In this document: positions 14,041-45,321 of the stretch, one piece after another | How positions within the stretch are numbered: position 1 is the first letter of the stretch | Layout of the letters: each line of letters begins with the position of its first letter | Assembly: GCA_040756135.1 (NCBI GenBank) | Contig: JBFLZS010000008.1 | Location: forward strand, 5,021-69,020 | Source of the DNA: Nitrospirota bacterium | Lineage (GTDB): Bacteria; Nitrospirota; Thermodesulfovibrionia; Thermodesulfovibrionales; SM23-35 | Direction of reading: 5' to 3' | DNA: 64,000 nt | Translations under genes and position numbers: made by a program | The notes under the pieces: model-generated | Told to the model about the DNA's origin: nothing | Databases searched by the model: none | Seen by the model: only the letters and a program-made list of their open reading frames with translations

Positions 14041-14192
14041 ATTTATTAGAATAACTACTAAAGGCATCAAAAGAATTATAGTATCCGCCACTGCTGTCTG
14101 ATAATTATGAACCAGCCCAAAAAACAAACACAAAAAACACAACAATATGTTGTTTCCAGAATTATTCCATTGGAAAATTTTCCTTTCGGATT
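14041..14192 (-). pseudogene. Decayed C-terminal sorting-tag remnant detached from the upstream S8 protease
   Basis: Out of frame with, and after the stop of, the 14193-16442 gene. It reads ...LCLFFGLVHNYQTAVADTIILLMPLVVILI, against GGGACSIGMVHSYQTAVADTIVLITPLLIILIIKRFRKF at 19177-19314. The Gly-rich segment is replaced by T/G-rich low complexity and the basic tail by a repeat. Confidence 0.6.
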
Positions 14193-16442
14193 TTACGGAA
14201 TATAAATGGATACCGTATTACTGGGAGGCGAATCTCCAGATGCATTGTAGGCCTTTACCCGAAAGTAATAAGTAGCTGGGCCTTTGCCTTTACCCATGGT
14301 GTAAGATGTTATATTCTGCCCTACCGTTGCTATTTGCGAAAATAATGTACAGTATCCAATAAATTTTTGTATACACCGCTCTATTTTAAACCCCGTCTCA
14401 TTGTTTGAATTATCTGTCCAATTAAGTTGTAGCCCACCGGTGATCACAGTGAGAGTGAGATTTGAAGGAGCTACAGGTATTCCTTCACTGGTTAAAACGA
14501 TACTATCCAAATAAATCTGCGACTCGCCTGTAGAGTTCTTTACCTTGAAGTAAACAGTCTTGGTCCCATTGCCTGAAGACAGCGTGAATGAAGGGGCTGT
14601 CGAGTAGGTCTGCCAAGAGGCTCGCCTGAAACTTGACGACTCACTCGCCATATAGTGCGTTGGGCTTCCAGTACAAGAGTTATTCAATGTCACGTTCCGG
14701 CTCGCCGTCGAAGAGGCTCCGTTGTTGATTGCAAACGAGGTGACACTAGGAGCTGCCGAAACATGTAACACCAGGTTGCCACCACCGCTGGTGCCATAGT
14801 AGCTGGCAACCTCGATTATTAAAGGCTTTGCCCCAGTCATAGGAACGTTTGTGATCTGTGACTGATAGCCGCCACCAGCGTTGTCATTGCAAGCAATGCG
14901 TATGAGGTCACCAGTACCGGAATCTATATTAAAAACAGCCAGAATGGTATTGTAGTTACTTCCGAAGGTGTCGAGGTTAAGTGATCCATTCGCAGTCGGC
15001 AAATAGTAGAACCACGCTGTATGACCGCCCGTCGACGGAGAGCCAGCACACAGTGTTGGGTCATCCCAAGAGGTGGTATACTCGGTTGTGTCGAGCGAGA
15101 TGGAAGCAGGTAGGGAATTAATAATCGATATACCGGACTGCCAGTCGGGGGTATAAGGCGGTTCTGTCAGGTCGACCCGAGAATACAGTAGGTAGTTCCA
15201 AGAGTTGGAGTCCAGTAGCTGTATGTGTCCAGGCGTAGCATAGGCGTCGATAAGCCAACCAGCTACATACTCAGGAGTATAATTTGGATAACGCTGTAGT
15301 AGCAACGCGGCAACACCAGCGACATGTGGCGCTGCCATAGATGTGCCGCTCAAGGTGTATTTGTCCGTATCGCTTCCATTGTATGCTGAGGTGATCTGGT
15401 TGCCCGGCGCGTAGATGTCGACACAGTATCCATAATTTGAGAATGATGCACGCCAATCATTTTGGTCGGTTGCTCCGACTGTAATTGCTTCGTATACATC
15501 TGCAGGTGATTCGTAACAGGATTTATAGGAACTTGCGTCGTTTCCTGCTGCGACAACATAGGTCACACCATGTGCGATCGATTTCTGCACTGCATCATCA
15601 AGTGAAAGCGAAGAAGGATATACTCCCAAGCTCATATTGGCGACGGCCGGATGGATGTGATTGCTGGTAACCCAGTCAACGCCCCCAATAACCCCAGAGA
15701 TATCCCCGTACCCATAGCAATCCAGAACACGCACTGGTACCACTCTGACATTCTTAGCAACACCATATGTGCTTCCCCCGACTGTACCAGCCACATGTGT
15801 GCCGTGTCCGTTACAATCGTTTGTCCACCGTCCATCATAAATGGTACTGTAGCCCGGATCTACGCGCCCAATAAATTCCATATGTGTCTTCCGAATTCCG
15901 GTATCTATCACATAGACACTTACACCTGTGCCTGTCAGGTTGTAAGTATACTGCCAATCCATAGGAAGATCCCGCCGATCTATGCGGTCTAGACCCCACG
16001 GCGGGGTAACCTGAACAGCTTGGGCCTGAACGTCCTGGGCCTGCATCTCCGGTATCACCTCAAGGCCTACATCCTCGACACGCGGCTCAGGCAGAGAAAC
16101 TATTCGGTCGGCCTCAATGTAAGCAATATGGGGATTTCGTTGTAAGGCCGCCAAGGCTTTAGCGGGAATGGTGGCGGCAAAGCCGCGCAAAGCTGTGTTA
16201 TAGGTAAAATGCAGCTTCCCGCGATGAACCTTGACCACCTCATCTGCGAGGGATTCGATTTCCGGAACAAGAACTTCATCTTTGAACACCACAATATACC
16301 GGTCTGGGATTGCATTCGGCGCATCCATGCCTACAATCGGAACCTCGCCCAGCAGCGTTTCAGCTGGTTCTCCGAAGGTGGTACCAATAGGCAGGGTTAA
16401 TAATACGAGAGCCGTCAGGATAAACGAGTATTTGGTACACAT
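14193..16442 (-). CDS. Secreted S8 serine protease, proteinase-K-like, with I9 propeptide, C-terminal beta domains and an Fn3 domain
   Basis: The likely start is the ATG at 16442, with AAGGAG 7 nt upstream and signal peptide MCTKYSFILTALVLLTLPIGTTFG. I9-type propeptide RYIVVFKD...AYIEADR. Catalytic triad contexts VYVIDTGI, NGHGTHVAGT and GTSMAAPHVAG. Fn3 segment LQLNWTDNSNNETGFKIER. Confidence 0.9.
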   Translation of the reverse strand: MCTKYSFILTALVLLTLPIGTTFGEPAETLLGEVPIVGMDAPNAIPDRYIVVFKDEVLVPEIESLADEVVKVHRGKLHFTYNTALRGFAATIPAKALAALQRNPHIAYIEADRIVSLPEPRVEDVGLEVIPEMQAQDVQAQAVQVTPPWGLDRIDRRDLPMDWQYTYNLTGTGVSVYVIDTGIRKTHMEFIGRVDPGYSTIYDGRWTNDCNGHGTHVAGTVGGSTYGVAKNVRVVPVRVLDCYGYGDISGVIGGVDWVTSNHIHPAVANMSLGVYPSSLSLDDAVQKSIAHGVTYVVAAGNDASSYKSCYESPADVYEAITVGATDQNDWRASFSNYGYCVDIYAPGNQITSAYNGSDTDKYTLSGTSMAAPHVAGVAALLLQRYPNYTPEYVAGWLIDAYATPGHIQLLDSNSWNYLLYSRVDLTEPPYTPDWQSGISIINSLPASISLDTTEYTTSWDDPTLCAGSPSTGGHTAWFYYLPTANGSLNLDTFGSNYNTILAVFNIDSGTGDLIRIACNDNAGGGYQSQITNVPMTGAKPLIIEVASYYGTSGGGNLVLHVSAAPSVTSFAINNGASSTASRNVTLNNSCTGSPTHYMASESSSFRRASWQTYSTAPSFTLSSGNGTKTVYFKVKNSTGESQIYLDSIVLTSEGIPVAPSNLTLTVITGGLQLNWTDNSNNETGFKIERCIQKFIGYCTLFSQIATVGQNITSYTMGKGKGPATYYFRVKAYNASGDSPPSNTVSIYIP

Positions 16443-16830
16443 TGTGAATCTCCTTCTAAGAAGCTTATAAGCTGTTATCAACATAGCAAATCTCATCATA
16501 TGTCTCTTTTTCTTAATACTTTCCATTTCTCCCTCCTACTTAAGTTAAAAATCAAGTTCCTTGCAAGGTTTAAAAAAACCTTATATTTAGCCAATTTCCA
16601 AGCTATATTTCTATTCCAATCTTCCATAGATACCCATGCTTTTACTTTTACAGGCGTGATACTTGATAGTTACAAGTTTTACTTGTTTTGCTTCGCAAGA
16701 TATTACCCTCATCTCCACCTTTACAGGTGAGGAGTTCACACTGAATTTGAAACGGTAAAATAATACATTTTTAAAAACCTAAGACAGCATTTACTGCCAT
16801 AATTTAACAACATCAATCCTGAACTATCAA

Positions 16831-17013: not shown

Positions 17014-19314
17014 ATGTTTAGATATTTATTCTTTTTATTTATCTTATTGAGTCTTTTTTCATGTGGTAGAGACAGTCAGTTTACTAATAGTAATCCAAGC
17101 AGTGTTTATTCAGATAAAAATATTCAAACGGATGGTTCAATCGCAAAGAGGGGGATGGCAGCAAGATATGTTCCTGGAGAAGTTCTGGTTAAATTCAAGA
17201 CAGGAACCTCTGCAAGCAGAGTGCATGTACTTAACAATGCATTAGGTGCAGTTAAGATAAAAGAAATCGAGCATATCGGAGTTCATCGAATAAAACTCCC
17301 TCACAAAATGAGTGTTGAAGATGCTGTTAAATATTACAAGGCGGAACCTGATGTGGAATATGCAGAACCGAACTATATTGTAAAAAAGGCTACCATCCCA
17401 AATGATCCGGATTTTAGTAAGCTTTGGGGACTCAATAATACAGGACAGATAGGAACCACTGATGCTGATATAGATGCGCCAGAGGCATGGGATATAACAA
17501 CAGGTTCAAATGATGTGATTATAGCTGTTATAGATACAGGAGTTGCTTATAATCATCCTGACCTTGCTGAAAATATATGGATTAACACGGAAGAACAGAA
17601 TGGCACCCCGGGGTCTGATGACGATGGGAATGGCTATATTGATGATATCTATGGATGGGACTTTATAGACAATGATGGCTATCCTGAGGATTATGATAGT
17701 CATGGGACTCATGTGTCAGGAACTATTGCTGCAAAGGGCAATAATGAAATAGGTATTGCTGGTGTGATGTGGTTAGCAAAGATAATGCCCATTAGGTTTT
17801 TAGGTGTGAGCGGTTGGGGTGATACAGGCAAAGCCGCAGAGGCAATAGTATACGCTGCAGATAACGGAGCGCGTATTATAAATGCGAGCTGGGGAAGCAG
17901 GGGTTATTCACAGGCCCTTTATGAGGCTATAGAATATGCACAGTCAAAAAATGTCCTTTTTGTTGCAGCGGCAGGCAATGAGGGAAATAACAATGATACT
18001 AATCCGTTCTATCCTGCCAGTTATAATCTCACAAATATTATCTCTGTTGCTGCTACAGATTATAATGATAAACTTGCCTCTTTTTCTAACTACGGGGCAA
18101 ACTCAGTGGATCTGGCGGCACCAGGAGTAGATATCTATAGCTCAATCCCTCTATTTATATATGATCCTCCTATTACAGTTTATAGTGAGAAGTTCGACAG
18201 TGCATCCGGAGAACTACCACTTCTGGGATGGTCCCGTGGAGGGACAAATTCTACATGGGCCGTAACTACAGGTACAGGAATAGACAACACGAACAGCCTT
18301 GAGGACAGTCCCGGAGGAGATTATCTTCCTAACACAAACTCTTGGGCAGGTTATATGACTCCTATTACATCTGTTAAGAATAACCGTTATACACTTTCGT
18401 TTAAATGGAGAGGGCATATTGACCCTACAATTTATGACTATTTAGATATTAATTACTCTCCTGACGGAATAAATTGGGACTGGGCAGACAGGACAAATGG
18501 AAATAATAGTAATTTTACTCAATACATAACCCGTGAAATCACTGCTGCGGCAGATTTTTACAATAGTTTTTATTTTGGTTTTGGTCTGGAATCTGATTCT
18601 ATTAGTAACTATGATGGTGTATACATTGATGATGTAGTCCTTACAAGAGAACCAATAAGTATAAGTGGGTATAATTATGAATCCTATGGGGGTACGTCAA
18701 TGGTTGCACCACATGTATCAGGGGTTGCAGGATTAATCCTTTCCCTGAATCCCGGTCTTTCTTATTCACAGGTCAAGGATATCATTTTAAACACAGTTGA
18801 TACAATTCCATCTCTTTCTGGCATTACCATGACAGGGGGCAGGGTAAATGCCATGAATGCCCTGCAAAATGCACTTCCTCCTACTGCGCCTGGTAGTCTT
18901 TCAGCCTCAGCGATATCAAGCAGCCAGATAGATCTTTCATGGACAGACAACTCCTCTAATGAAACAGGTTTCAAGATAGAAAGAAAAGTAGACGCAGGCG
19001 GGACATACTCCGAAATTGCAACGGTAGGGGCAAATATTACTACCAATAGCGATACAGGTCTTAGTGCCTCAACAACATATTATTACCGTGTAAGTGCGTA
19101 TAACGTTGCCGGAGATTCTTCTTATTCTAACGAGGTAAGTGTAACAACTCCGGAAGAAGGTACGGAAGAAGGTAAAGGCAGTGGGGGAGGGGCTTGTTCT
19201 ATCGGGATGGTTCATAGTTATCAAACAGCAGTGGCAGATACCATAGTTCTCATCACACCTTTATTAATTATTCTAATAATCAAAAGGTTTAGAAAATTCC
19301 AGGATAAGGCATAA
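17014..19314 (+). CDS. S8 subtilase lipoprotein with fervidolysin-type prodomain, jelly-roll-like insertion, Fn3 domain and Cys-containing C-terminal tag
   Basis: Lipobox LLSLFSC. Prodomain GEVLVKFK...VEYAEPNY. Catalytic contexts AVIDTGV, SHGTHVSGT and GGTSMVAPHVSG. Fn3 segment IDLSWTDNSSNETGFKIER. Tail GSGGGACSIGMVHSYQTAVADTIVLITPLLIILIIKRFRKF. Confidence 0.92.
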   Translation: MFRYLFFLFILLSLFSCGRDSQFTNSNPSSVYSDKNIQTDGSIAKRGMAARYVPGEVLVKFKTGTSASRVHVLNNALGAVKIKEIEHIGVHRIKLPHKMSVEDAVKYYKAEPDVEYAEPNYIVKKATIPNDPDFSKLWGLNNTGQIGTTDADIDAPEAWDITTGSNDVIIAVIDTGVAYNHPDLAENIWINTEEQNGTPGSDDDGNGYIDDIYGWDFIDNDGYPEDYDSHGTHVSGTIAAKGNNEIGIAGVMWLAKIMPIRFLGVSGWGDTGKAAEAIVYAADNGARIINASWGSRGYSQALYEAIEYAQSKNVLFVAAAGNEGNNNDTNPFYPASYNLTNIISVAATDYNDKLASFSNYGANSVDLAAPGVDIYSSIPLFIYDPPITVYSEKFDSASGELPLLGWSRGGTNSTWAVTTGTGIDNTNSLEDSPGGDYLPNTNSWAGYMTPITSVKNNRYTLSFKWRGHIDPTIYDYLDINYSPDGINWDWADRTNGNNSNFTQYITREITAAADFYNSFYFGFGLESDSISNYDGVYIDDVVLTREPISISGYNYESYGGTSMVAPHVSGVAGLILSLNPGLSYSQVKDIILNTVDTIPSLSGITMTGGRVNAMNALQNALPPTAPGSLSASAISSSQIDLSWTDNSSNETGFKIERKVDAGGTYSEIATVGANITTNSDTGLSASTTYYYRVSAYNVAGDSSYSNEVSVTTPEEGTEEGKGSGGGACSIGMVHSYQTAVADTIVLITPLLIILIIKRFRKFQDKA
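19177..19314 (+). other. Candidate C-terminal sorting signal (GGGACSIG, hydrophobic helix, KRFRKF)
   Basis: A tripartite architecture shared with 32441-32563 and, in decayed form, 14041-14145. Confidence 0.6.
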
Positions 19315-19338: not shown

Positions 19339-19887
19339 TCATTGAGATGGGTTGTGGACCACATTTGCCAGAAAGTGAAATATAATTCCGGGAAGTATAT
19401 TGTTTGTCTTCATATAAAGCCATCCCATCATAATGGATGGAAAAAAGCTGAGAAGTGATATCCAGTCATCGGCAAAAATAGCCTTTGGCAAGTGTGCAAT
19501 TGAAAACAGCAGGCTCACCAGTAAAACAGCCTTGAAGTTTCTCCCTATTGAATCCTGAAGAAATCCTCTGAAAAAGAACTCCTCTGGCAGAGAGATGATT
19601 AAAAGCTGGAAGATTATACCCCTCACCCATCCCTCTCCCTCAAGGTGAGGGGGGGAGGGCGAAAAGACAATATAGTAGGGCAAAAGTATAACAATAGATA
19701 CGATAAATCCTAAAAAAAAGTCATTTATCGAAAACCATAGTTTTACATTGTGGCCTACGATTATTGGAAACATCAGCATTATAATTGGTAACGAAACGTA
19801 AAAAATATTGTTTGCGGGCTTTATTGAATACAAGAGAAAAGATAAAATGAGAATAACAAAATAACCAGATATAGTCTTTATGTTCAT
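19339..19887 (-). CDS. CPBP-family (CAAX-protease-like) intramembrane glutamic endopeptidase
   Basis: A polytopic membrane protein with all three family motifs: EExxxR (LPEEFFFRGF), FxxxH (FSIAHL) and HxxxN (FHFLAN). A repeat-derived segment SPSPPHLEGEGWVRG precedes motif 1. Confidence 0.85.
   Translation of the reverse strand: MNIKTISGYFVILILSFLLYSIKPANNIFYVSLPIIMLMFPIIVGHNVKLWFSINDFFLGFIVSIVILLPYYIVFSPSPPHLEGEGWVRGIIFQLLIISLPEEFFFRGFLQDSIGRNFKAVLLVSLLFSIAHLPKAIFADDWISLLSFFPSIMMGWLYMKTNNILPGIIFHFLANVVHNPSQ
19620..19662. repeat. Variant G/C-run palindromic element, in-frame in the CPBP gene
   Basis: Sequence ccctcacccatccctctccctcaaggtgagggggggagggcg. Confidence 0.6.
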
Positions 19888-20036: not shown

Positions 20037-20936
20037 TCACAGACTCCCCTTTAAAGGAATCACATAATATCCCGGGGAAATTTTATACCTTTCAAGCTCA
20101 CCGCGAAATAAAGGGTTTTCAATAAAAGATATTCCGGGCATTAATTCCAAATTGAGGTTCATAACAGCATCTTTTACAGCGCCCTTCAACCTCGCATGGA
20201 TATCCTTTCCTTCAAGGGCGATAGAAACAACATTTATCATATTTCCTTTTATGTCTACAGTACCTCTTATGCTATTAAAAAAATTCAGAGGAACATTAAC
20301 CCCTGACAGAATCGCTGGCTCAAGTCTTGAATCTTCAGTAACAAACTCAACATGTCCTGTATCATCTAACATATTAAATCTTCCTGAAACGGTTCCGGTA
20401 CCCTGTATACCGATGAGTTTAAATAAAGGTATCCCATTTATATTAGCTTTGTTAATATCAAGCTCTATCTGCATCTTATTCTTTGTAAGATTCGCGCGCC
20501 CCGAAAAGTTCCCTCCTCCTATACCTCCGTCAAAGGATATATTCAACCATAACATTATAAAACTTAGCGGGCTTATATGGCCATAGATATTATTTAAAGA
20601 GACAAGTTCTTCTCCCGAGCTTTTTAGTGTTAACCTGTCAACAGCCAAATTATAAAATAAGCCTTTTTTAAGTCCTTTAACTTCCAACCCGAGCTTATCA
20701 CTATTAATAGAATCCTCTATGATGGATTGTATTGAGGCATTAGGAAATACTATCCATATCCCATAGAAAAGAACCGGAATGGCAGCAAGAGCGATAAGGA
20801 TCTTTTTGCTCGAAAATCCCTCTTCCCTTCCTGACAAATCCCCCCATCCCCCCTTTGCTAAAGGGGGGCGAGGGGGGATTACTAAAGGGCAGTTAGAGGG
20901 ATTACTTCTATTATTTTTTGTATTGCAACGGGGCAT
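20037..20936 (-). CDS. gspN: Type II secretion system protein GspN (assigned by position; start uncertain)
   Basis: It is the last gene of the gspC-N order and has a single N-terminal TM helix (ILIALAAIPVLFYGIWIVF). The ORF-track N-terminus runs through a family-A repeat, so the true start is probably downstream of 20837. Confidence 0.55.
   Translation of the reverse strand: MPRCNTKNNRSNPSNCPLVIPPRPPLAKGGWGDLSGREEGFSSKKILIALAAIPVLFYGIWIVFPNASIQSIIEDSINSDKLGLEVKGLKKGLFYNLAVDRLTLKSSGEELVSLNNIYGHISPLSFIMLWLNISFDGGIGGGNFSGRANLTKNKMQIELDINKANINGIPLFKLIGIQGTGTVSGRFNMLDDTGHVEFVTEDSRLEPAILSGVNVPLNFFNSIRGTVDIKGNMINVVSIALEGKDIHARLKGAVKDAVMNLNLELMPGISFIENPLFRGELERYKISPGYYVIPLKGSL
20837..20880. repeat. 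Family-A palindromic element in the gspN 5' region (IPPRPPLAKGGWGDL)
   Basis: Sequence aatccccccatcccccctttgctaaaggggggcgaggggggatt. Confidence 0.9.
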
Positions 20937-20943
20937 TATTGCT

Positions 20944-21450
20944 TCACTTTGATTTCAAAAAAGAAAGGGTCAGGGTAATATTCAAAAGTTCCGGGTTTTC
21001 AAAAGATTTTTTTATAGCAGCCTTTCTAATGGTAAGTGACATTGGTGCATTCTCGATTCTATAGAAAATATTCATCATTTCATTCATGTTAACTTTTTCT
21101 ATCTGAAGATCAGCCTCTTCTTCAAATCCGTCCTTAATCTCTCTCCTGCCTGTAGATTTGACTGTTTTTATTTTATCCTTTAATCCGATGGGTAAAAAAA
21201 CCTCATCTATAGCCTGAACAACACCCTGCACATTTGATAGATTTTTTTTTCCTTCCACAGCATCAATTCTTTGTTTGAGAGATAAAAACTCGCCCTTAAG
21301 CATCAGCATCTCTTTTCGCTGTTCTTTAAGTATTTTTAATTCTCTTCTTTCAGATGAAAGAAGATTCATTCCAAGGGCGACAATAATAATGAAACCTGTC
21401 ATCGCTAATAAAACATAGATAAATCTTTTATCCTTTAATAATTCCCTCAA
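20944..21450 (-). CDS. gspM: Type II secretion system protein GspM
   Basis: 168 aa with an N-terminal TM helix (FIYVLLAMTGFIIIVALGMNLL), then a coiled coil and a small periplasmic domain. It lies between gspL and gspN. Confidence 0.65.
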   Translation of the reverse strand: MRELLKDKRFIYVLLAMTGFIIIVALGMNLLSSERRELKILKEQRKEMLMLKGEFLSLKQRIDAVEGKKNLSNVQGVVQAIDEVFLPIGLKDKIKTVKSTGRREIKDGFEEEADLQIEKVNMNEMMNIFYRIENAPMSLTIRKAAIKKSFENPELLNITLTLSFLKSK

Positions 21451-21467
21451 GCCCTTTTCTCCTTCTA

Positions 21468-21552
21468 AACGCAGATTATCGCAGATTATTTACAGATGTT
21501 CACAGATGCATCTGTGGTAATCTGCATCTTTTCATCCGTGTTCATCTGTGTT
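21468..21552. repeat. Tandem-heptamer hairpin module (gcagatta / cagatg units) at the gspL-gspM junction
   Basis: gcagattatcgcagattatttacagatgttcacagatg|catctgtggtaatctgc...catccgtgttcatctgtg. The centre cacagatgcatctgtg is a perfect palindrome. Confidence 0.75.
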
Positions 21553-22606
21553 CCACTTCCTTCGCTGTTATCGCAAACAACATTTTGCCCTGTGTAGATG
21601 CCTTTGAATCAGATATATTTACATCATCAAAGAGACGTTCGAGCTTAACCTTTACCCGTTGAATATCACTCAAAGACGATGCCTCGCCTTTCAGGGTCAG
21701 ATTTCCTCTATCTGCTGTTATTTCATTAAAAATAACACCCTGTCTATCAATCTGAGAAAGATTAAGAAGCAGGTTAAGCGGGTTAACACCAATAAAAAAC
21801 TCCTCTCTGTTTTTTAATTCCTTCATATGGGATTTAAGCTGATAAAGCTCATTTGTTATATTTTTTTCTCCGGGAAAGATCCCTTGATATACCTTTCGCA
21901 TATCACTCTTAAAAGATGCTATCTCCTGCCTTGCAGATACAATTTTTAACAATAAGTCAGATGCAAGAACAATCGCAAGCAATATCGCAAGTACTGCTGT
22001 TACTTTCAGGGATTTCCTGGTTTTTTCAATACCTCGAGTATATGAAAACTCATCTCTTCTTAGATTTATAGTAGGCGCTATTATCTCTTCAATCGCCAGT
22101 GGTATCCTGTCTTTATCCTCTAAAGAAGGTGCAAGAAGTCTCGCTAAGTTAAAATCCTTAAGTACGTTTTTAAGTTCTAAGGAAGTTATAAACTCAGGAT
22201 CTATGTTGTATGATTTTAATCTTTCAAGAATCCTGCTGATAATTGTTTTCTCAATATATACAGCAAGTACCTGATATTTATCGTCAGATTTACCAACGAC
22301 AATATTATCGAAAACCATTTTTTCTACCCCCCCAAATATCACCCCATCGAGTTCGAATGGAAGTATCTCCCTTATCCTATCCTTATCAGAAAATGGCAAA
22401 TCAATGACCCTGAAATTAAGACTGCTTATAGGTAAACTCAAACAGGCATTCTCTATATCCTTTGTTAAATCAATAGAGAAGTCATACCCATCACGCATGG
22501 GATAACTTTTGCTATCCTTTAATTCGAATCTGCCATGCCTGACCTCGAATATGTAAGTCTCTATTTCCCCTTCTTTTATATCAATAAAAATAGATCTGCT
22601 CATCAA
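21542..22606 (-). CDS. gspL: Type II secretion system protein GspL
   Basis: 354 aa: a cytoplasmic actin-like N-domain, a single TM helix (VTAVLAILLAIVLASDLLL) and a periplasmic C-domain. Its start overlaps the gspK stop. Confidence 0.65.
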   Translation of the reverse strand: MMSRSIFIDIKEGEIETYIFEVRHGRFELKDSKSYPMRDGYDFSIDLTKDIENACLSLPISSLNFRVIDLPFSDKDRIREILPFELDGVIFGGVEKMVFDNIVVGKSDDKYQVLAVYIEKTIISRILERLKSYNIDPEFITSLELKNVLKDFNLARLLAPSLEDKDRIPLAIEEIIAPTINLRRDEFSYTRGIEKTRKSLKVTAVLAILLAIVLASDLLLKIVSARQEIASFKSDMRKVYQGIFPGEKNITNELYQLKSHMKELKNREEFFIGVNPLNLLLNLSQIDRQGVIFNEITADRGNLTLKGEASSLSDIQRVKVKLERLFDDVNISDSKASTQGKMLFAITAKEVEHR

Positions 22607-23505
22607 TATTCCTTCCAGTATTCAATCCTGTTATATGATGTATTAAGAACTGTCTCGATTATCCTTTTAACACCACCAGAGTCAGCGGTGGATTTTATGT
22701 AAAAATTCTTCCCCTCAACTGTTATCTTACCCATGAGTGACTGACCTATAGTTGTCTCAAACCCTGCAACTTTAAAAATTTGCTCCACTTTCTCAAAAGG
22801 CGTAACCTTCCTGTAATCAATCACCCTTTGCGCAAGCCCTTCTGTTATATTATCCGAAAGACACCTGAGAACAGGTTTTTCAGCTCCATTAATATTAATT
22901 TGTGGCGATCTCCAATCTCCGTAGGTGGTTATGTATGGCAGTAATTTATCATAATCCTTCCTGCTTATTCCATTTATCAAAAGGATCTCATCAACACTGA
23001 CAAGACGCGAATTTTTTGCGCCCACCTCGGAATCAGTTAGTCTTGACTCGCTATTCGTGTCAATCCAGTCTACTATTCTATCTGCGATCTTCTCATCTAA
23101 TGAAAGAATTTTCAAAAGTCTTTTGAATGAATTATAAGGACTATTCATATCACTTTCATTAATTATCTCATTCTCGGGGACAATAGAATTGATGTTAAAC
23201 TTAGAATTTTCATCTTCTATCCTTACCAATATCGTCCCATTAAAATCTTCAAAGGGATTCTCTACGGGAAGATCTATAGAACCCGGATATGAATAATTAG
23301 ATTTATTTAGCAGGTCTGATAAAAACCTTGCTGATACATTTATACCTGATCTTGCCATTATAGAAAGTCGTTGAGAATCCCGCCAGTTATAAAGATCGCT
23401 TGTACCGGTATAGACCCCATATGAAAATTCCACCACCATAGCAGTAATCAGAACAAGGGCCAACAGGGTTATAACTAATGCTATACCTTTTTGATTATTA
23501 AACAT
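22603..23505 (-). CDS. gspK: Type II secretion system minor pseudopilin GspK
   Basis: QKGIALVITLLALVLITAMVVEF gives a GspK-type N-terminus without the Glu5. The size and position are typical. Confidence 0.8.
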   Translation of the reverse strand: MFNNQKGIALVITLLALVLITAMVVEFSYGVYTGTSDLYNWRDSQRLSIMARSGINVSARFLSDLLNKSNYSYPGSIDLPVENPFEDFNGTILVRIEDENSKFNINSIVPENEIINESDMNSPYNSFKRLLKILSLDEKIADRIVDWIDTNSESRLTDSEVGAKNSRLVSVDEILLINGISRKDYDKLLPYITTYGDWRSPQININGAEKPVLRCLSDNITEGLAQRVIDYRKVTPFEKVEQIFKVAGFETTIGQSLMGKITVEGKNFYIKSTADSGGVKRIIETVLNTSYNRIEYWKEY

Positions 23506-23562
23506 CTCACCCGAAATTCCTTTTTATTAAGGTTCGGATAATAACACATGCAATGATTGAAA

Positions 23563-23635
23563 AATCCCTCCTAACCTCCCTTTGCCAAAGGGAGGTATTA
23601 CCCCTCTTTGGAAAAGAGGGGATAGGGGAGATTTT
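23563..23635. repeat. Family-B double-hairpin element, gspJ-gspK intergenic
   Basis: aaaatccctcctaacctccctttgccaaagggaggtattacccctctttggaaaagaggggataggggagatttt. The reverse-complement copy is at 24754-24827. Confidence 0.85.
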
Positions 23636-23664
23636 ACAAATATAATTTTGATCACAACTTTGCA

Positions 23665-24402
23665 TTAAATCATCTTCCCCACCCTCGGTCTTGACACATC
23701 AAAAAGGTCAACCTTTCTTCCTTTTATTATCATGGACAGACAGATCCTGATCTCACCGGGCATGCCCTTGGTTATGTCAGTATCCCACGTCTTCACCCAT
23801 CTGTCGTTGTATTTCGCTTCAATAGTAAACTCTTCAATATCCTCAATTATATCAACCCCTTCGGTTTCATCTGATAATCCCCCCAGCCCCCCTTTACTAA
23901 AGGGGGGTGAGGGGGGATTATCTTTATTAGCATAAGGGGATTCCACCTTCTTAAAGAGATTTAATTTCCCATCTTTTTCTTCTATGTAGTATGAAATCAT
24001 GGAAAGGCCGGGGCGCAAAGTTGAAAAGGTTGTAAAGGTAAGCTTCGTTGCCTGCTTACCGTAGATATCCCTGTCTTCAATCTTTAAAAATGTATTACTA
24101 TCATCCTTATAGAAAGAAGCCGAATCCAGTTCACGCCTTAAGATGTCAATCGCCTTTCTATATTCCTGAAGTTTCAACAGAGATTCGTCCATGCCTTCAA
24201 TCGCCCTATGGCTTAAGAAAAATGTGCTGTAGATTGCAGCAAGGACTATAGAAAGTATTGCAACAGCGATGAGTATCTCAATAAGGGTGAAACCACCCTG
24301 CCTCCCTTTACTAATAATCCCTCTCAATACCCCTTTATCAAATCCCCCCTTGCCCCCCTTTTCTAAAGGGGGGATGGGGGGATTACTTAAAAACAAACTC
24401 AT
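23665..24402 (-). CDS. gspJ: Type II secretion system minor pseudopilin GspJ (start uncertain; possible TTG at 24327)
   Basis: Prepilin-type site RQGG|FTLIEILIAVAILSIVLAAIYS. Family-A repeats lie in the leader or 5' region and internally (NPPSPPFSKGGLGGL). Confidence 0.8.
   Translation of the reverse strand: MSLFLSNPPIPPLEKGGKGGFDKGVLRGIISKGRQGGFTLIEILIAVAILSIVLAAIYSTFFLSHRAIEGMDESLLKLQEYRKAIDILRRELDSASFYKDDSNTFLKIEDRDIYGKQATKLTFTTFSTLRPGLSMISYYIEEKDGKLNLFKKVESPYANKDNPPSPPFSKGGLGGLSDETEGVDIIEDIEEFTIEAKYNDRWVKTWDTDITKGMPGEIRICLSMIIKGRKVDLFDVSRPRVGKMI
23876..23919. repeat. Family-A palindromic element, in-frame inside gspJ
   Basis: Sequence aatccccccagcccccctttactaaaggggggtgaggggggatt. Confidence 0.9.
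24341..24383. repeat. Family-A palindromic element at the gspI 3' end / gspJ leader
   Basis: Sequence aatccccccttgccccccttttctaaaggggggatggggggatt. Confidence 0.9.
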
Positions 24403-24868
24403 TAAGTTTTACCTCTTCTTTACCGGCCCTGACAGTAACAATAATCTCTGATATGCCAACATATGGTGACTCCTTAACAAAGGTCTCATAAGTATACCCT
24501 TCATAGGGTGTGTCAAATACCCCTTTTTCATTATCACGGCTTTTTTCTGCATCTGCAATCTTATTCTTTGCAAGAAGGGTTGCAATTGTGAGGGTCTCAT
24601 GCCTTTCGATGATACCTAAATGATAGTTCAGGGTATATATAAGGGTTACAAGGAGACCTCCAACAATGGCAAGGGCAAGGAGGACCTCAAGAAGGGTAAA
24701 GCCTGCTTTATAAGAATTATTAAGGGTCTTAAATTTGAATTGAAATTGTTTAAAAAATCTCCCCTTGCCCCTCTTTTCCAAAGAGGGGAATCCCTCCCTT
24801 TGGCAAAGGGAGGTTAGGAGGGATTTTACAATTAATGCCGTTATGATTATGAGACTATTAATAAACAT
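24383..24868 (-). CDS. gspI: Type II secretion system minor pseudopilin GspI
   Basis: Prepilin-type site YKAG|FTLLEVLLALAIVGGLLVTLIY. The long leader contains family-B repeat codons (SLCQREGFPSLEKRGKGRF). Confidence 0.8.
   Translation of the reverse strand: MFINSLIIITALIVKSLLTSLCQREGFPSLEKRGKGRFFKQFQFKFKTLNNSYKAGFTLLEVLLALAIVGGLLVTLIYTLNYHLGIIERHETLTIATLLAKNKIADAEKSRDNEKGVFDTPYEGYTYETFVKESPYVGISEIIVTVRAGKEEVKLNEFVFK
24754..24827. repeat. Family-B double-hairpin element inside the gspI leader-coding region
   Basis: aaaatctccccttgcccctcttttccaaagaggggaatccctccctttggcaaagggaggttaggagggatttt. Confidence 0.85.
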
Positions 24869-24908
24869 TAAAAATTTAAATTTCTGGATTTCCTTAATTT
24901 TGAATCTT

Positions 24909-25460
24909 TCATTTTGAATTTTGAGTTATCTTTATTCTCCCACTCAGATGGTTGAGGGTAATTGTCATCCCTTTATCTCCTTTACCCATATGAACGCTGA
25001 TATTCTCTTGAATCCCAAGGGGGCCAAAAAAAAGTGTAATCTCGCCATCTGAGACCTTTCCTTTTGATTGCGTGGTTACACCGGTCATATCATCGAACCT
25101 TTTCGTCTTTTCCCCATCCGGTCCTACCCAGTAGACGGTACCTTCATCAAGGTCAAATTTCATCGAAAAGGTCTCCTTCCTTGATACAGCGCTGTCGTTC
25201 ATATACCTCAGTATTGAGGCAATCTCTCTTGACTCAGATTTGAGCTTACTCTCGCCAAAACCAGCAAAAGACGGAAAGATAAGAGCCATAACAATAGAGA
25301 TGATGAACATAACAACGATTAGTTCTAACAATGTGAAGCCCATTTCAGGTTGGTTTTTGCTTGGAACTTGGAACTTGGAACTTGGAACTTTTTTATTGCA
25401 TATCCCAGTTCTTGATATCCGCATTCTTGCCATCTCCACCTTCTTTTCCATCAGCGCCAT
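24909..25460 (-). CDS. gspH: Type II secretion system minor pseudopilin GspH (start uncertain)
   Basis: Prepilin-type site PEMG|[24 protein letters not shown]. The candidate ATG starts all overlap the gspG 3' end. The leader includes a (ggaactt)x4 tandem repeat. Confidence 0.75.
25347..25392. repeat. Tandem heptamer (ttggaac)x4 in the gspH leader-coding region
   Basis: ttggaacttggaacttggaacttggaactt at 25361-25390. Confidence 0.85.
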
Positions 25461-25824
25461 AACTTATTAAATCGAAATCACCGTAAAGGCCTGGCGATAT
25501 ATATATATAGGGATTGCCCCATGGGTCAAGCGGAATTTTCTTTTGCTCAAGGTATCCACCTTCCCTGTATTTCTGTGGTATCTGGCCTGCGGTTGGTTTC
25601 TCTATAAGTGATATAAGTCCCTGCTCGGTGTCTGGATAAAAGCCGTTGTCGAGCTTAAAGAGCTTGAGTGCCGTCTCAAAATTTTTTATCTGGACCTTTG
25701 CCTCTGCAATGCGTGCATCATCAGTCCGGCCTATTATCTTTGGTGCAACAATAGCTGCCAGGATGCTGAGTATAAATACAACCACAATTATCTCAAGAAG
25801 GGTAAAACCTTTATTATTAGTCAT
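25393..25824 (-). CDS. gspG: Type II secretion system major pseudopilin GspG
   Basis: MTNNKG|[23 protein letters not shown]...DPWGNPYIY...GADGKEGG. This is canonical GspG. Confidence 0.93.
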
Positions 25825-25840
25825 TTATTCCTCCCATTCT

Positions 25841-25938
25841 ATTCCAAGATTCATGATTCACGATGCAGGATACATGATGCATGATTCGTGTATTTTATTT
25901 ACATGTATCTTGTATCCGTATCTTGCATCCTGTTTCCT
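25841..25938. repeat. Tandem-heptamer block module upstream of gspG
   Basis: A block (catgatt/catgatg) followed by a block (gtatctt/gcatcct). Confidence 0.7.
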
Positions 25939-25945
25939 GACTAAT

Positions 25946-26185
25946 TAGAGTCTGTCCATAAAGTCGTATTTTGTCATTGTCCGGCTTGACCGGACAATCC
26001 AGAACATATTGAAAACACTGGATTCCCCGATCAAGTCGGGGAATGACTAATTGTATAAGTCATAAAGTCAGTTTTATTGTCATTCCTGCGGAGGCAGGAA
26101 TCCAGAACCTTTTGAAAATACTGGATTCCGGCTTAAGGACTGCCGGAATGACAGATAGTAAACATCAGTTTATACATAGACACTA
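25946..26185. repeat. MITE-like nested-hairpin element inside the gsp operon (gspF-gspG spacer)
   Basis: Imperfect terminal inverted repeats tagagtctgtccataaagt ... cagtttatacatagacacta enclose four family-C hairpins. The element ends 1 nt from the gspF stop. Confidence 0.8.
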
Positions 26186-26186
26186 A

Positions 26187-27362
26187 TCATTTTATCAACT
26201 GGTTCAACTGGAATATCGGCAAAAGAACTGCAAGGACTATAAATCCGACAATAAGCCCCATAAAAAGAATCATTGCAGGTTCAAGAAAAGAAAGGGCCTT
26301 CTGTACCTTTCTCGAGAATTCTTCCTCATACGAATCTGCAGCTTTCTTCAGCACCTCAATTAGTCTCCCACTCTTCTCTCCAGTTGCGATTAATTGAAGA
26401 AGCACAGGCGGGAATCCCTCAAGGGATGCAGAAAGCCCTGCCCCTTCTGCAACCCGTTTGCCACCTTCAATCACCTTTGTCTCAAGTATCTTATTCCCGA
26501 TAGACTTTGCAGCAAGCTCAAGCGACCTCAAAACAGGAAGACCCCCTCCGAGCAAAGAACTAAATGTCCTCGTAAATCGTCCAAAATAAAGGCTCTGTAA
26601 TATATTTCCGGGCAAACGTAAAACAAGCCTATCAATAAATAATCTTTTCCTTTCACTCAGTCTTCTAAAACCGAATACACCTGCCAGAATTATTCCCAAT
26701 AAAAGCCACCAGTAGTTTTGAAAAATATCACTAATGGTTATAAGCACAATAGTGATAAAAGGCAGGGCGCTCTCTGTATCCTTAAATATCTTTGTTATCT
26801 TCGGTATAACAAAGATAAACAAAAAGGAGAGAACAACAAAACCAATACAGATCATAAAAATAGGATAAACCATTGAGGTTCTTACCTTTGATCTGAGGTT
26901 AGCCTGTGCCTCCAAAAAATCTGACAGACGTCTGAGAATATCATCAAGATTTCCGCCTGCCTCTCCTGCAGCAACCATATTTACATAAAACTCAGGGAAA
27001 ACCTTTTCATAATCCTCAAGCGCCTTTGAAAAGCTCGACCCTCCGGCGACCCTTTCCTTTATGTTCACTAACATGTTTTTCCAGAAACCCTTATTTTCCT
27101 CAGAGATTGAACTCAGCGCATCCATCAGGGTCACACCTGATGAAAGTAAGGTTGATAACTGCCTTGTTATTGATGGGAGAAGGGATATATCAGACCTGTG
27201 GAATAGACTGAAACCCCTTTTATAAACAGCTTCCTTTACATTTTTTGGGTAAAGACCTGAGTCTTTAAGCCTTAAGACTGCATCCTTGAGGCTGTTTGCC
27301 TCAAGGGTCCCTGCTACCTCCGAGCCGTCTGACCTGTATCCTCTATACTGAAATATCGGCAT
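26187..27362 (-). CDS. gspF: Type II secretion system inner-membrane platform protein GspF
   Basis: A duplicated GspF/PilC domain architecture with three TM segments. It lies between gspE and gspG. Confidence 0.9.
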   Translation of the reverse strand: MPIFQYRGYRSDGSEVAGTLEANSLKDAVLRLKDSGLYPKNVKEAVYKRGFSLFHRSDISLLPSITRQLSTLLSSGVTLMDALSSISEENKGFWKNMLVNIKERVAGGSSFSKALEDYEKVFPEFYVNMVAAGEAGGNLDDILRRLSDFLEAQANLRSKVRTSMVYPIFMICIGFVVLSFLFIFVIPKITKIFKDTESALPFITIVLITISDIFQNYWWLLLGIILAGVFGFRRLSERKRLFIDRLVLRLPGNILQSLYFGRFTRTFSSLLGGGLPVLRSLELAAKSIGNKILETKVIEGGKRVAEGAGLSASLEGFPPVLLQLIATGEKSGRLIEVLKKAADSYEEEFSRKVQKALSFLEPAMILFMGLIVGFIVLAVLLPIFQLNQLIK

Positions 27363-27386
27363 ATATTATAAATACCTAAAATATAA

Positions 27387-27430
27387 ATCCCCCCTCACCC
27401 CCCTTTACTAAAGGGGGGAGTGGGGGGATT
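27387..27430. repeat. Family-A palindromic element, gspE-gspF intergenic
   Basis: Sequence aatcccccctcacccccctttactaaaggggggagtggggggatt. Confidence 0.9.
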
Positions 27431-27436
27431 TTTCAT

Positions 27437-29005: not shown

Positions 29006-29059
29006 ATCTATGAAAACATTAATGATGATTTATTGTCACAAACGAACATGAAAATCAGT

Positions 29060-29104
29060 AATCCCCCCATGCCCCCCTTTAGTAAAGGGGGGTTAGAGGG
29101 GATT
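29060..29104. repeat. Family-A palindromic element, gspD-gspE intergenic
   Basis: Sequence aatccccccatgcccccctttagtaaaggggggttagaggggatt. Confidence 0.9.
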
Positions 29105-29110
29105 TGTCCT

Positions 29111-31405: not shown

Positions 31406-31418
31406 GTTTACCCATATC

Positions 31419-41294: not shown

Positions 41295-41338
41295 TTTTCC
41301 TCCTGAATAAAATTTTTCATAATTTATGTTCAACCTTA

Positions 41339-44582: not shown

Positions 44583-44597
44583 CCGAAAATTACCATT

Positions 44598-45312: not shown

Positions 45313-45321
45313 ATCAGACCC

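What the first reader, a model, noticed from the sequence alone, without database searches (positions are those of the whole stretch)
19177..19314. A shared Cys-containing tripartite C-terminal tag on two subtilases looks like an undescribed sorting signal
Both prodomain-type S8 proteases end, right after an Fn3 domain, with the same layout. One reads GSGGGACSIGMVHSYQTAVADTIVLITPLLIILIIKRFRKFQDKA (19177-19314) and the other HSGGGGSCSIGPRQNTPTAIADLAVMMIPLVVIALMRRRR (32441-32563). Each has a Gly run, an invariant C-S-I-G, a T-A-x-A-D segment, a P-L-containing hydrophobic helix and a basic cluster. This is the grammar of PEP-CTERM, LPXTG and MYXO-CTERM-type signals. The invariant Cys after a Gly run most resembles MYXO-CTERM-like tags, but the CSIG...TAxAD signature is not one I recognise. 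No other protein in the window carries it.
Basis: partly seen in the sequence, partly recalled or inferred. Interest (0 to 1): 0.8.

Follow-up and report, generated by a model that had tools for sequence, protein, structure and literature searches.

The report
New cysteine sorting tag in Nitrospirota
Two secreted proteases in this Nitrospirota genome end in a conserved cysteine-containing tail that is very probably an undescribed surface-sorting signal, cut by the membrane protease encoded next door and exported by the adjacent type II secretion system, as in the myxobacterial MYXO-CTERM/myxosortase system.

Summary
Two S8 subtilases end, right after an Fn3 domain, in a homologous tail of about 38 residues: G-run, C-S-I-G, polar spacer ending T-A-x-A-D, Pro-containing helix, basic cluster. 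A decayed third copy lies out of frame. Copies 2 and 3 are on the minus strand.

The tail is a widespread family, not a paralogue quirk:
- 119 of the 120 best subtilase homologues carry it, with an invariant Cys.
- A tag-only profile hit 56 cluster representatives among 1.84 billion proteins, including Ig-repeat lipoproteins and choice-of-anchor U/D proteins without any S8 domain.
- All 30 loci from species genomes are Nitrospirota/Thermodesulfovibrionales.

No NCBIfam sorting-domain model reaches its cut-off. MYXO-CTERM and JDVT-CTERM come closest.

It encodes a 182-aa CPBP (Rce1-like) intramembrane protease whose best NCBIfam matches are seven myxosortase-family models, all below cut-off. 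It closes a complete type II secretion operon that opens with tagged subtilase 2. This linkage holds across genomes: the CPBP is directly adjacent in 19 of 30 tag loci, the secretion operon in 10 more, and all five CPBP-selected loci are linked.

Verdict: a lineage-specific new variant of the Cys-type sorting-signal/myxosortase/T2SS kind. Cleavage and lipidation are inferred.

The parts
19177..19314 (+). Tag 1: the C-terminal sorting-signal-like domain of subtilase 1 (G-run, C-S-I-G, spacer ending TAVAD, Pro-containing helix, KRFRKF), stop codon included.
   Evidence: A profile built without the window sequences hits it at E = 6e-12.
17014..19314 (+). Subtilase 1, 766 aa: lipobox signal peptide (LFSC), Fervidolysin-type prodomain, S8 catalytic domain with an insert, fn3, then tag 1.
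   Evidence: It belongs to the 'VH.YQTA' tag subtype, which lies convergent to the CPBP in L003, L013, L024 and L043.
32441..32563 (-). Tag 2: the C-terminal sorting-signal-like domain of subtilase 2, close to the family consensus (GGGGSCSIGPRQNTPTAIADLAVMMIPLVVIALMRRRR).
   Evidence: The profile hits it at E = 1.3e-21.
32441..34396 (-). Subtilase 2, 651 aa: lipobox signal peptide (LASC), prodomain, S8, fn3, then tag 2. It is the first gene of the T2SS operon.
   Evidence: The same position at the head of the T2SS operon is seen in L001, L009, L014, L016, L020, L021 and L025-L027; in L011 and L028 the tagged gene at that position is cut short or frameshifted and was not classified as S8.
14041..14145 (-). 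Decayed third tag. Only the spacer and helix survive (LVHNYQTAVADTIILLMPLVVILIN). It is out of frame with subtilase 3 and has no Cys motif and no clear basic cluster.
   Evidence: It is 83% identical over 72 nt to tag 1, and the profile hits it at E = 8.9e-7.
14193..16526 (-). Subtilase 3, 777 aa (I9 prodomain, S8, fn3). It now stops before the remnant tag.
19339..19887 (-). CPBP (Rce1-like) glutamic intramembrane protease of 182 aa, the proposed cognate sorting enzyme. It lies convergent to tag 1, 24 bp away, and is the last gene after GspN.
   Evidence: - Pfam PF02517: 70.5 bits.
- Its best NCBIfam hits are seven myxosortase-family models, all below cut-off.
- Motifs PEEFFFRG, FSIAH and HFLAN are present and invariant in 49 homologues.
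- The AF2 model has pLDDT 89.8, and its only credible PDB match is MmRce1 4cad.
20037..32294 (-). Complete type II secretion operon:
- GspC 31419-32294
- GspD 29111-31405
- GspE 27437-29005
- GspF 26187-27362
- GspG 25393-25824
- minor pseudopilins 24909-25460, 24383-24868 and 23665-24402
- GspK 22603-23505
- GspL 21542-22606
- a GspM-position ORF 20944-21450
- GspN 20037-20936
29111..29380 (-). C-terminal extension of the secretin GspD, homologous to the subtilase N-terminal prodomain. It may be a cargo-specific adaptation.
   Evidence: - Pfam PF22148 matches GspD residues 680-758.
- It is 40% identical to the subtilase 2 prodomain, E = 1e-13.
- It is conserved in all complete T2SS GspD genes of the related loci and absent from PilQ.

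Best explanation
The tail is a phylum-specific, Cys-containing tripartite C-terminal protein-sorting signal. It is a sibling of MYXO-CTERM, JDVT-CTERM and Synerg-CTERM.

**Consensus.** GGGGG-C-S-I-G-A-R-Q-N-T-P-T-A-x-A-D, then a helix of about 15 residues with Pro at +21, then an R/K cluster at +29. About 33 residues run from the Cys to the end.

**Proposed mechanism.** Each step is marked as shown or inferred.
1. The protein is exported by Sec through an N-terminal signal peptide. In the subtilases and the large Ig-repeat carriers this is a lipoprotein-type signal. *The sequence motif is shown; its processing is inferred.*
2. The C-terminal helix and Arg cluster hold the protein in the inner membrane, with its body in the periplasm. 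*Inferred from the architecture and the positive-inside rule.*
3. The invariant Cys is modified, probably lipidated. The adjacent CPBP intramembrane glutamic protease, a myxosortase-like enzyme, then cleaves distal to the Cys and removes the helix and basic tail. *Inferred by homology to Rce1 and MrtX and from conserved gene adjacency.*
4. The co-encoded type II secretion system moves the processed protein across the outer membrane, where the modified C-terminus keeps it on the cell surface. *Inferred from operon structure and from the experimental MYXO-CTERM and GlyGly-CTERM precedents.*

In the subtilases, autocatalytic loss of the N-terminal prodomain, and with it the N-terminal lipid, would leave the C-terminal anchor as the only tether. 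*Inferred.*
For: **The tag is a conserved domain.**
- The Cys is invariant in 197 of 197 unique tails.
- S follows at +1 in 189, I/V/L at +2 in 197, G at +3 in 167, D at +14 in 150 and Pro at +21 in 174.
- 159 of 211 profile hits end exactly at the protein C-terminus.

**It is modular.** It sits on unrelated proteins: S8 subtilases, He_PIG/HYDIN-type Ig-repeat lipoproteins, choice-of-anchor U proteins, and DUF5122 and Temptin/TSP3 proteins.

**It is taxonomically coherent.** All 30 genome loci are Nitrospirota/Thermodesulfovibrionales MAGs.

**The cognate enzyme is plausible.**
- The window CPBP has the CPBP catalytic motifs and an Rce1 fold.
- Seven of its eight best NCBIfam hits are myxosortase-family models. 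The same holds for its orthologues P0217 and P0190.

**Linkage, starting from the tag**.
- In 19 of 30 loci, a CPBP orthologue is directly adjacent to the tagged gene.
- In 10 of 30, the tagged gene heads the T2SS operon.
- One locus is cut by the contig end.

**Linkage, starting from the CPBP.** In all 5 loci with enough flank (L003, L005, L041-L043), the CPBP faces a tagged subtilase that closes the T2SS operon.

**Linkage independent of subtilases.** In L039, a tagged Ig-repeat protein with no S8 domain lies directly upstream of the CPBP.

**Precedents.**
- Adjacency of tag and CPBP was the evidence used to define JDVT-CTERM/MrtJ, and a T2SS cassette co-profiles with Synerg-CTERM/MrtS (bioRxiv 10.1101/2023.06.07.544157).
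- MrtX cleavage of MYXO-CTERM, its dependence on Cys and the role of the T2SS have experimental support (PMC11980579).
Against: - No biochemical evidence here shows cleavage, Cys modification or surface exposure.
- The CPBP is below every curated myxosortase cut-off: Mrt_core 65.3 bits against 100, MrtS 68.4 against 130. [quoted passage not shown] Family assignment therefore rests on best-hit ranking and context.
- The genome scan used two strict peptide patterns, so it mainly recovered subtilase-type tags. Per-genome counts of substrates and a true phylogenetic profile across whole genomes could not be computed.
- One carrier (P0281) is binned to an Ignavibacteriales MAG. Either the range is wider or the binning is imperfect.
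- Most subtilase carriers also have an N-terminal lipobox, so a C-terminal lipid anchor is not strictly needed for membrane retention of the zymogen.
Confidence: 0.72

Rival explanations
1. The tail is simply a divergent MYXO-CTERM (or JDVT-CTERM) domain. On this view it is an existing family that the current HMMs miss, and nothing is new.
For: - The architecture is the same and the Cys is invariant.
- The family consensus scores 16.1 bits on TIGR03901.2, against a cut-off of 20.
- One non-subtilase tail scores 21.4 bits on JDVT-CTERM, against a cut-off of 27.
- Haft notes that these short models are hard to make sensitive across lineages.
Against: - The window tags score 8.2 bits or nothing.
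- MYXO-CTERM is described as lacking Pro or charged residues in the helix and as often carrying GCGC. Here Pro at +21 is present in 174 of 197 tails, there is a single Cys, and a conserved 14-residue polar spacer (SIGARQNTPTAxAD) precedes the helix.
- The JDVT DP motif lies 9 residues after the Cys. Here D is at +14 and P at +21.
- The lineage (Nitrospirota) and the CPBP subfamily (about 180 aa, below all Mrt equivalog cut-offs) also differ.
Confidence: 0.12
2. The tail is a plain, uncleaved C-terminal membrane anchor that keeps the proteases in the inner membrane. The neighbouring CPBP does something unrelated, such as immunity or bacteriocin-type processing.
For: - A helix followed by a basic cluster is enough for stop-transfer anchoring.
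- CPBP proteins have varied roles, many of them unknown.
Against: - The strongest conservation lies outside the helix: the G-run, the invariant Cys and S-I-G/QN/TA.AD. A mere anchor would not need that.
- The CPBP is directly adjacent to tagged genes in 19 of 30 loci, often with overlapping or nearly abutting ORFs, including next to a non-subtilase carrier.
- The tagged genes are embedded in T2SS operons. That makes no sense for proteins that stay in the inner membrane.
Confidence: 0.1
3. The tag is a sorting signal, but a different enzyme processes it (rhombosortase, exosortase/archaeosortase-like, or signal peptidase II/Lgt acting on GGGC). The CPBP would be only an accessory.
For: - GlyGly-CTERM proteins are also T2SS cargo with Gly-rich motifs.
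- The G-G-G-C stretch loosely recalls a lipobox.
Against: - No rhomboid, exosortase or sortase domain was found in any window ORF that was scanned.
- None appears in the called genes of the related loci.
- GGGGGC lacks the hydrophobic -3 position of a canonical lipobox (stated from general knowledge).
Confidence: 0.06

Closest known systems
MYXO-CTERM / myxosortase MrtX (Myxococcota; TIGR03901, NF040593). Experimentally supported in PMC11980579.
   Same: - Tripartite C-terminal tag with an invariant Cys after a Gly-rich run, then a helix, then an Arg cluster.
- A CPBP/Rce1-like intramembrane protease as the sorting enzyme.
- A type II secretion system for the surface delivery step.
- Many unrelated carrier proteins.
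   Different: - Here there is a single Cys followed by conserved S-I-G, a 14-residue conserved polar spacer, and a near-invariant Pro in the helix.
- The HMM score is below cut-off (8-16 bits against 20).
- The lineage is Nitrospirota.
- The enzyme has only about 180 aa and scores 43 bits on MrtX, against a cut-off of 180.
- Enzyme, main cargo and T2SS are encoded together. In M. xanthus the enzyme is a dispersed housekeeping gene.
Synerg-CTERM / MrtS (Synergistales; TIGR04564, NF040589).
   Same: - MrtS is the best-scoring NCBIfam model for the window CPBP (68.4 bits).
- The enzymes are similar in size (profile length 170).
- The helix carries a conserved Pro.
- The system is tied to a dedicated, divergent T2SS cassette.
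   Different: - Synerg-CTERM has no spacer between the Cys and the helix. Here the spacer has 14 residues.
- No TIGR04564 hit was found.
- The MrtS score is about half the cut-off of 130.
- The phylum is different.
JDVT-CTERM / MrtJ (Pseudomonadota; NF033191, NF033192).
   Same: - A single invariant Cys.
- Conserved residues within or next to the helix.
- The tag-bearing gene and the CPBP gene are directly adjacent (16 of 17 in Haft's data; 19 of 30 here).
   Different: - JDVT has a DP motif 9 residues after the Cys and usually one client per genome.
- Here the motif is A-D at +13/+14 with P at +21.
- Here there are several clients per genome, at least 2-3 subtilases plus others.
- Scores are below cut-off (at most 21.4 against 27; MrtJ 44.8 against 75).
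GlyGly-CTERM / rhombosortase, with VesB of Vibrio cholerae.
   Same: A secreted serine protease carries a C-terminal tripartite tag, is processed in the inner membrane, and is then moved by the T2SS and retained on the surface.
   Different: - The enzyme class differs: a rhomboid serine protease there, a CPBP glutamic protease here.
- There is no Cys in the signature.
- No rhomboid gene lies in the window regions that were scanned.

Membership tests
MYXO-CTERM sorting domain (TIGR03901.2) | Tripartite layout at the extreme C-terminus: signature motif, hydrophobic helix, Arg-rich cluster. | tested here: met
   In one search, 159 of 211 hits end exactly at the C-terminus and the basic cluster starts at +29.
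MYXO-CTERM sorting domain (TIGR03901.2) | Invariant Cys in the signature motif. | tested here: met
   Present in 197 of 197 unique tails.
MYXO-CTERM sorting domain (TIGR03901.2) | HMM score at or above the curated cut-off of 20 bits. | tested here: not met
   Tag 2 scores 8.2 bits and tag 1 gives no hit. The family consensus scores 16.1 bits.
MYXO-CTERM sorting domain (TIGR03901.2) | No Pro or charged residue in the helix; frequent second Cys (GCGC), as described by Haft. | tested here: not met
   Pro is at +21 in 174 of 197 tails. There is a single Cys, followed by S-I-G.
MYXO-CTERM sorting domain (TIGR03901.2) | Lineage: Myxococcota / Bradymonadales. | tested here: not met
   All named sources are Nitrospirota/Thermodesulfovibrionales.
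JDVT-CTERM (NF033191) | HMM score of at least 27 bits, and a near-invariant DP motif 9 residues after the Cys. | tested here: not met
   Scores are 7.2 to 21.4 bits. D is at +14 and P at +21.
Synerg-CTERM (TIGR04564) | No spacer between the Cys and the helix; HMM match. | tested here: not met
   No hit at E up to 10. The spacer has 14 residues.
CPBP / Rce1-like intramembrane glutamic protease (PF02517) | Pfam gathering score, the catalytic motifs EExxxR, FxxxH and HxxxN/D, and an Rce1 fold. | tested here: met
   - 70.5 bits against a gathering score of 22.4.
- PEEFFFRG, FSIAH and HFLAN are invariant in 49 sequences.
- Foldseek top hit is 4cad_L, probability 1.00, TM 0.59.
Myxosortase family (NF040914 Mrt_core; equivalogs MrtX/C/P/Z/J/S) | Score at or above the curated cut-off of the core-domain model or of any equivalog model. 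| tested here: not met
   Scores against cut-offs:
- Mrt_core 65.3 / 100
- MrtS 68.4 / 130
- MrtP 64.8 / 250
- MrtC 52.6 / 195
- MrtJ 44.8 / 75
- MrtX 43 / 180
- MrtZ 32.7 / 325

These are nevertheless seven of the eight best hits. Two orthologues behave the same way.
Myxosortase family (functional definition) | Co-occurrence or adjacency with proteins that carry a Cys-containing tripartite C-terminal tag. | tested here: met
   - 19 of 30 tag-selected loci are directly adjacent to the CPBP.
- 5 of 5 CPBP-selected loci are linked.
- A non-subtilase carrier is adjacent in L039.
Myxosortase family (functional definition) | Cys-dependent proteolytic removal of the helix and Arg tail; T2SS-dependent surface display. 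| not testable with these tools
   This needs biochemistry or genetics. Only the genomic linkage to a T2SS operon is shown.

The most novel reading that the evidence does not exclude
This is a self-contained surface-protease display module specific to Nitrospirota (Thermodesulfovibrionia). It would consist of:
- a new Cys-type sorting signal, which could be called CSIG-CTERM;
- its own subfamily of small myxosortase-like CPBP proteases;
- a co-evolved type II secretion system whose secretin carries a copy of the cargo's own prodomain, possibly as a docking, chaperone or inhibitor module for the subtilase.

The cargo is lipid-anchored first at the N-terminus, as a zymogen, and finally at the C-terminus, as the mature enzyme.
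Probability: 0.45. Interest if true: 0.7.

Novelty: new variant of a known kind. Interest (0 to 1): 0.6.

Why it matters
**For protein sorting.** It would add a further member to the recently recognised class of Cys-containing C-terminal sorting signals handled by CPBP "myxosortases". It would also extend that class to a phylum of environmentally important, mostly uncultured anaerobes.

**As an experimental system.** Signal, protease, dedicated cargo and type II secretion system all lie within about 20 kb. That makes the module compact and portable for testing open questions about the class:
- What is attached to the Cys?
- Where does the cut fall?
- How does the T2SS recognise the product?

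**For annotation.** Hundreds of MAG proteins now called "S8 family serine peptidase", "hypothetical protein" or "CPBP family intramembrane glutamic endopeptidase" could be named as sorting-signal clients and sorting enzyme.

**For T2SS cargo recognition.** The secretin-prodomain fusion, if functional, would be a new way for a T2SS to recognise its cargo.

Tried and rejected
**Searches that failed or needed repeating**
- A word-indexed homologue search with the three tails alone found no candidate. The tail is too short and variable for 5-mer seeding, so I used the full-length subtilase and then a full HMMER scan with a tag profile.
- An exact look-up of subtilase 1 found nothing on record.
- The 59-sequence tag alignment was too diverse for back-translated genome scanning. 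A narrower 8-sequence alignment worked, but it biases recovery towards the canonical, subtilase-type tag.
- phmmer of the CPBP against PDB sequences found nothing. The link to Rce1 needed a fold comparison.

**Ideas considered and rejected**
- Other tag carriers in the window. None was found. The 1357-aa choice-of-anchor D protein ends without a tag.
- A rival sorting enzyme in the window (rhomboid, exosortase or sortase). None turned up in 40 scanned ORFs.
- P0257 and P0279 as carriers. They are internal repeat proteins that match only profile positions 9-27, many times over.
- The Reprolysin protein beside the subtilases in L002 as a carrier. It gave no profile hit.

**Literature.** Searches for a description of this system in Nitrospirota found nothing.
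Full report
**1. The observation**

Tag 1 is exactly as reported. Window 19177-19314 (+) reads GSGGGACSIGMVHSYQTAVADTIVLITPLLIILIIKRFRKFQDKA* and closes the 766-aa ORF 17014-19314.

The second and third copies have the right coordinates, but they lie on the minus strand. The + strand translations are nonsense.
- The reverse complement of 32441-32563 closes the 651-aa ORF 32441-34396 (-) with HSGGGGSCSIGPRQNTPTAIADLAVMMIPLVVIALMRRRR*.
- 14041-14145 (-) reads ...GLVHNYQTAVADTIILLMPLVVILIN.

Both intact carriers have a Fervidolysin-type N-prodomain, Peptidase_S8 and one fn3 domain that ends about 10 residues before the tag.

The third subtilase (14193-16526, -; I9 prodomain, S8, fn3) stops 48 nt before the remnant, and the remnant is in another frame. 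The remnant has no Gly-run or Cys motif and only scattered basic residues in place of the basic cluster. It is 83% identical over 72 nt to tag 1, so it is a genuinely decayed copy.

A profile built from 57 homologous tails, without the window's own two tags, was run against all 968 stop-to-stop ORFs of at least 30 aa in the window. It hit only these three sites (E = 1.3e-21, 6e-12, 8.9e-7). The next best hit had E = 0.17. A regex screen of C-termini found no further carrier.

**2. The tag is a wide, modular family**

The full-length subtilase 2 has thousands of homologues. Of the best 120, taken from Nitrospirota/Thermodesulfovibrionales MAGs and metagenomes, 119 end in the same tail; the exception is a truncated sequence.

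In 197 unique tails:

| Position relative to Cys | Residue | Count |
|---|---|---|
| -1 to -4 | G | 164-188 |
| 0 | C | 197 |
| +1 | S | 189 |
| +2 | I/V/L | 197 |
| +3 | G | 167 |
| +6, +7 | Q, N | ~150 each |
| +10, +11 | T, A | ~150 each |
| +13, +14 | A, D | 158 and 150 |
| +21 | P | 174 |
| +29 | start of basic cluster | 146 |

The modal distance from the Cys to the end is 33 residues. Of 211 profile hits, 159 end exactly at the protein C-terminus.

A 39-position tag-only profile was searched with full HMMER against 1.84 billion cluster representatives. It gave 56 hits at E up to 1e-3 and 20 at E up to 1e-10. By content:
- 23 have an S8 domain.
- 7 are Fn3-only fragments.
- 26 are something else. 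Two of these are false repeat hits, and one is a 2849-aa protein with three divergent internal copies.

The true non-subtilase carriers include:
- Lipoprotein-like Ig-repeat proteins of 900-1700 aa (He_PIG and HYDIN/VesB-like Ig, that is, choice-of-anchor D).
- A choice-of-anchor U protein.
- Temptin_C/TSP3 proteins.
- A DUF5122 protein.

Where the source names the organism it is Nitrospirae/Nitrospiraceae, with one Ignavibacteriales MAG. A scan of one genome per GTDB species with the peptide patterns GGGGGCSIG and QNTPTAxAD returned 30 loci, all from Nitrospirota/Thermodesulfovibrionales MAGs.

A short C-terminal domain shared by otherwise unrelated secreted proteins within one lineage is the working definition of a sorting signal.

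**3. It is not covered by an existing model**

Against NCBIfam release 20 (June 2026), at E up to 10:
- Tag 1 hits nothing.
- Tag 2 hits only MYXO-CTERM TIGR03901.2, at 8.2 bits (cut-off 20).
- The family consensus reaches 16.1 bits on MYXO-CTERM.
- Non-subtilase tails reach 7-21 bits on JDVT-CTERM (cut-off 27).
- Synerg-CTERM, CGP-CTERM, GlyGly-CTERM, PEP-CTERM and the other sorting-domain models do not appear.

Source annotations are generic: "S8 family serine peptidase", "hypothetical protein".

Haft's paper defining the Cys-type signals mentions neither Nitrospirota nor subtilases. Literature searches found nothing on such a system.

**4. Surroundings: the decisive context**

The ORF 19339-19887 (-) stops 24 bp from the stop codon of tag 1. 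It encodes a 182-aa CPBP/Rce1-like protein (PF02517, 70.5 bits).
- Its best NCBIfam matches are MrtS (68.4), Mrt_core (65.3), MrtP, MrtC and MrtJ. MrtX and MrtZ come a little lower, just after one ABC-permease/CPBP fusion model. Seven of the eight best hits are therefore myxosortase-family models, but every one is below its curated cut-off. Two orthologues behave identically.
- It carries the CPBP catalytic motifs PEEFFFRG, FSIAH and HFLAN. These are invariant in an alignment of 49 orthologues.
- An AF2 model (pLDDT 89.8, eight helices) has a single credible PDB match: MmRce1, 4cad, probability 1.00, TM 0.59.

This gene is the last in a complete minus-strand T2SS operon, in this order:

tagged subtilase 2, GspC, GspD, GspE, GspF, GspG, three minor pseudopilins, GspK, GspL, a GspM-position ORF, GspN, CPBP.

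No rhomboid, exosortase or sortase homologue was found in 40 scanned window ORFs.

**5. The linkage is conserved**

In the 30 tag-selected genome loci:
- In 19, a CPBP orthologue is directly adjacent to the tagged gene. The usual order is subtilase, CPBP, aroC on one strand, often with abutting or overlapping ORFs. Sometimes the CPBP is flanked by two tagged subtilases.
- In 10, the tagged gene heads the T2SS operon.
- One is cut by a contig end.

Starting instead from CPBP orthologues on long contigs, all five (L003, L005, L041, L042, L043) show aroC, then the CPBP facing a tagged subtilase, then GspN through GspE.

In L039, the gene directly upstream of the CPBP is a tagged Ig-repeat protein with no S8 domain. 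The CPBP therefore tracks the tag, not the protease domain.

This is the same kind of evidence that defined two known systems:
- JDVT-CTERM/MrtJ, where tag and CPBP were adjacent in 16 of 17 cases.
- Synerg-CTERM/MrtS, which co-profiles with a T2SS cassette.

**6. Mechanism**

The best-supported reading follows the MYXO-CTERM model. For that system, MrtX-dependent and Cys-dependent cleavage has been shown experimentally, and lipidation and T2SS-mediated surface localisation are the accepted model (PMC11980579).
1. Sec export.
2. Retention in the inner membrane by the C-terminal helix and Arg cluster.
3. Modification of the invariant Cys.
4. CPBP cleavage distal to the Cys.
5. T2SS transfer to the surface.

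Shown here: the sequence architecture, its conservation, the enzyme's family, motifs and fold, and the gene linkage.

Inferred: every biochemical step.

The conserved C-S-I-G directly after the Cys has the form Cys-small-aliphatic-X, which is reminiscent of a CaaX box. This is my own observation, not a tested claim.

**7. Comparison and novelty**

The system works like MYXO-CTERM/MrtX, Synerg-CTERM/MrtS and JDVT-CTERM/MrtJ, but it fails the membership tests of each on several counts:
- HMM cut-offs for both the tag and the enzyme.
- The helix Pro.
- The 14-residue conserved spacer.
- The position of D and P.
- Lineage.

I therefore class it as a new variant of a known kind: a lineage-specific Cys-type sorting signal with its own small myxosortase-like CPBP subfamily, encoded together with its main cargo and a T2SS.

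**8. Limits**

- No whole-genome profiling was possible.
- The genome scan was biased towards canonical tags.
- No Mrt seed sequences were available for a tree.
- There is no biochemistry.

I put about 0.97 on the tag being a real conserved modular domain. I put about 0.72 on the full CPBP-plus-T2SS sorting mechanism.

Noticed in passing
window 29111-29380 (-), C-terminus of GspD (29111-31405): The T2SS secretin ends in a module of about 89 aa that is homologous to the subtilases' own N-terminal Fervidolysin-type prodomain. Pfam PF22148 matches it, and it is 40% identical to the subtilase 2 prodomain (E = 1e-13). Every complete T2SS GspD in the related loci ends ...VEYAEPNY, and the PilQ secretins do not. 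It may be a cargo-docking or inhibitor-mimic adaptation of this T2SS.
   Followed up: partly
window 17014-17075 (+) and 34340-34396 (-); homologues P0001-P0120: Both tagged subtilases start with a lipoprotein-type signal peptide (LFSC, LASC), as do 115 of 120 homologues and the large Ig-repeat carriers. These proteins therefore have a candidate lipidation Cys at both ends. Prodomain autoprocessing would discard the N-terminal one.
   Followed up: partly
window 13345-13836 (-): A PrcB_C-domain protein lies directly downstream of the tag-less subtilase 3. The window subtilases also hit the dentilisin PrtP model below threshold. This hints at a dentilisin-like protease/PrcB partnership.
   Followed up: no
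window 19339-19887 (-): The deposited protein for this CPBP gene (P0121, 144 aa) covers only 79% of the 182-aa ORF. The longer N-terminus (MNIKTISGY...) is conserved in 48 homologues and folds as two confident helices. The public annotation therefore appears to start too late.
   Followed up: yes
window 34601-41333 (-) compared with L039 and L040: Between PilMNOPQ (41686-46919) and the tagged subtilase, the window holds an untagged 216-aa ORF, a Big_1 protein (38818-40701) and a 1357-aa choice-of-anchor D protein (34601-38674). In L039 and L040 the same slot after PilQ holds a tagged He_PIG Ig-repeat lipoprotein, followed in L039 directly by the CPBP and aroC. The region looks like a hotspot for surface-protein genes.
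   Followed up: partly
P0285 (2849 aa, metagenomic representative): This protein contains three internal, divergent tag-like segments (Cys, spacer, Pro-containing helix, RRK), each followed by what looks like a new signal peptide. It is probably three fused ORFs or a read-through, from an unidentified lineage. It suggests that more distant relatives of the tag exist.
   Followed up: no
window 57634-58494 (-): The C-terminus of this ORF has CxxCH-type motifs (CHGAHG, CFTCH) after a Gly-run, so it is probably a multihaem cytochrome. It appeared only in the tail screen and is not a tag carrier.
   Followed up: no
L041 10644-12143: In one related genome, a DDE transposase has inserted between the CPBP and the tagged subtilase, breaking the otherwise invariant adjacency.
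   Followed up: no
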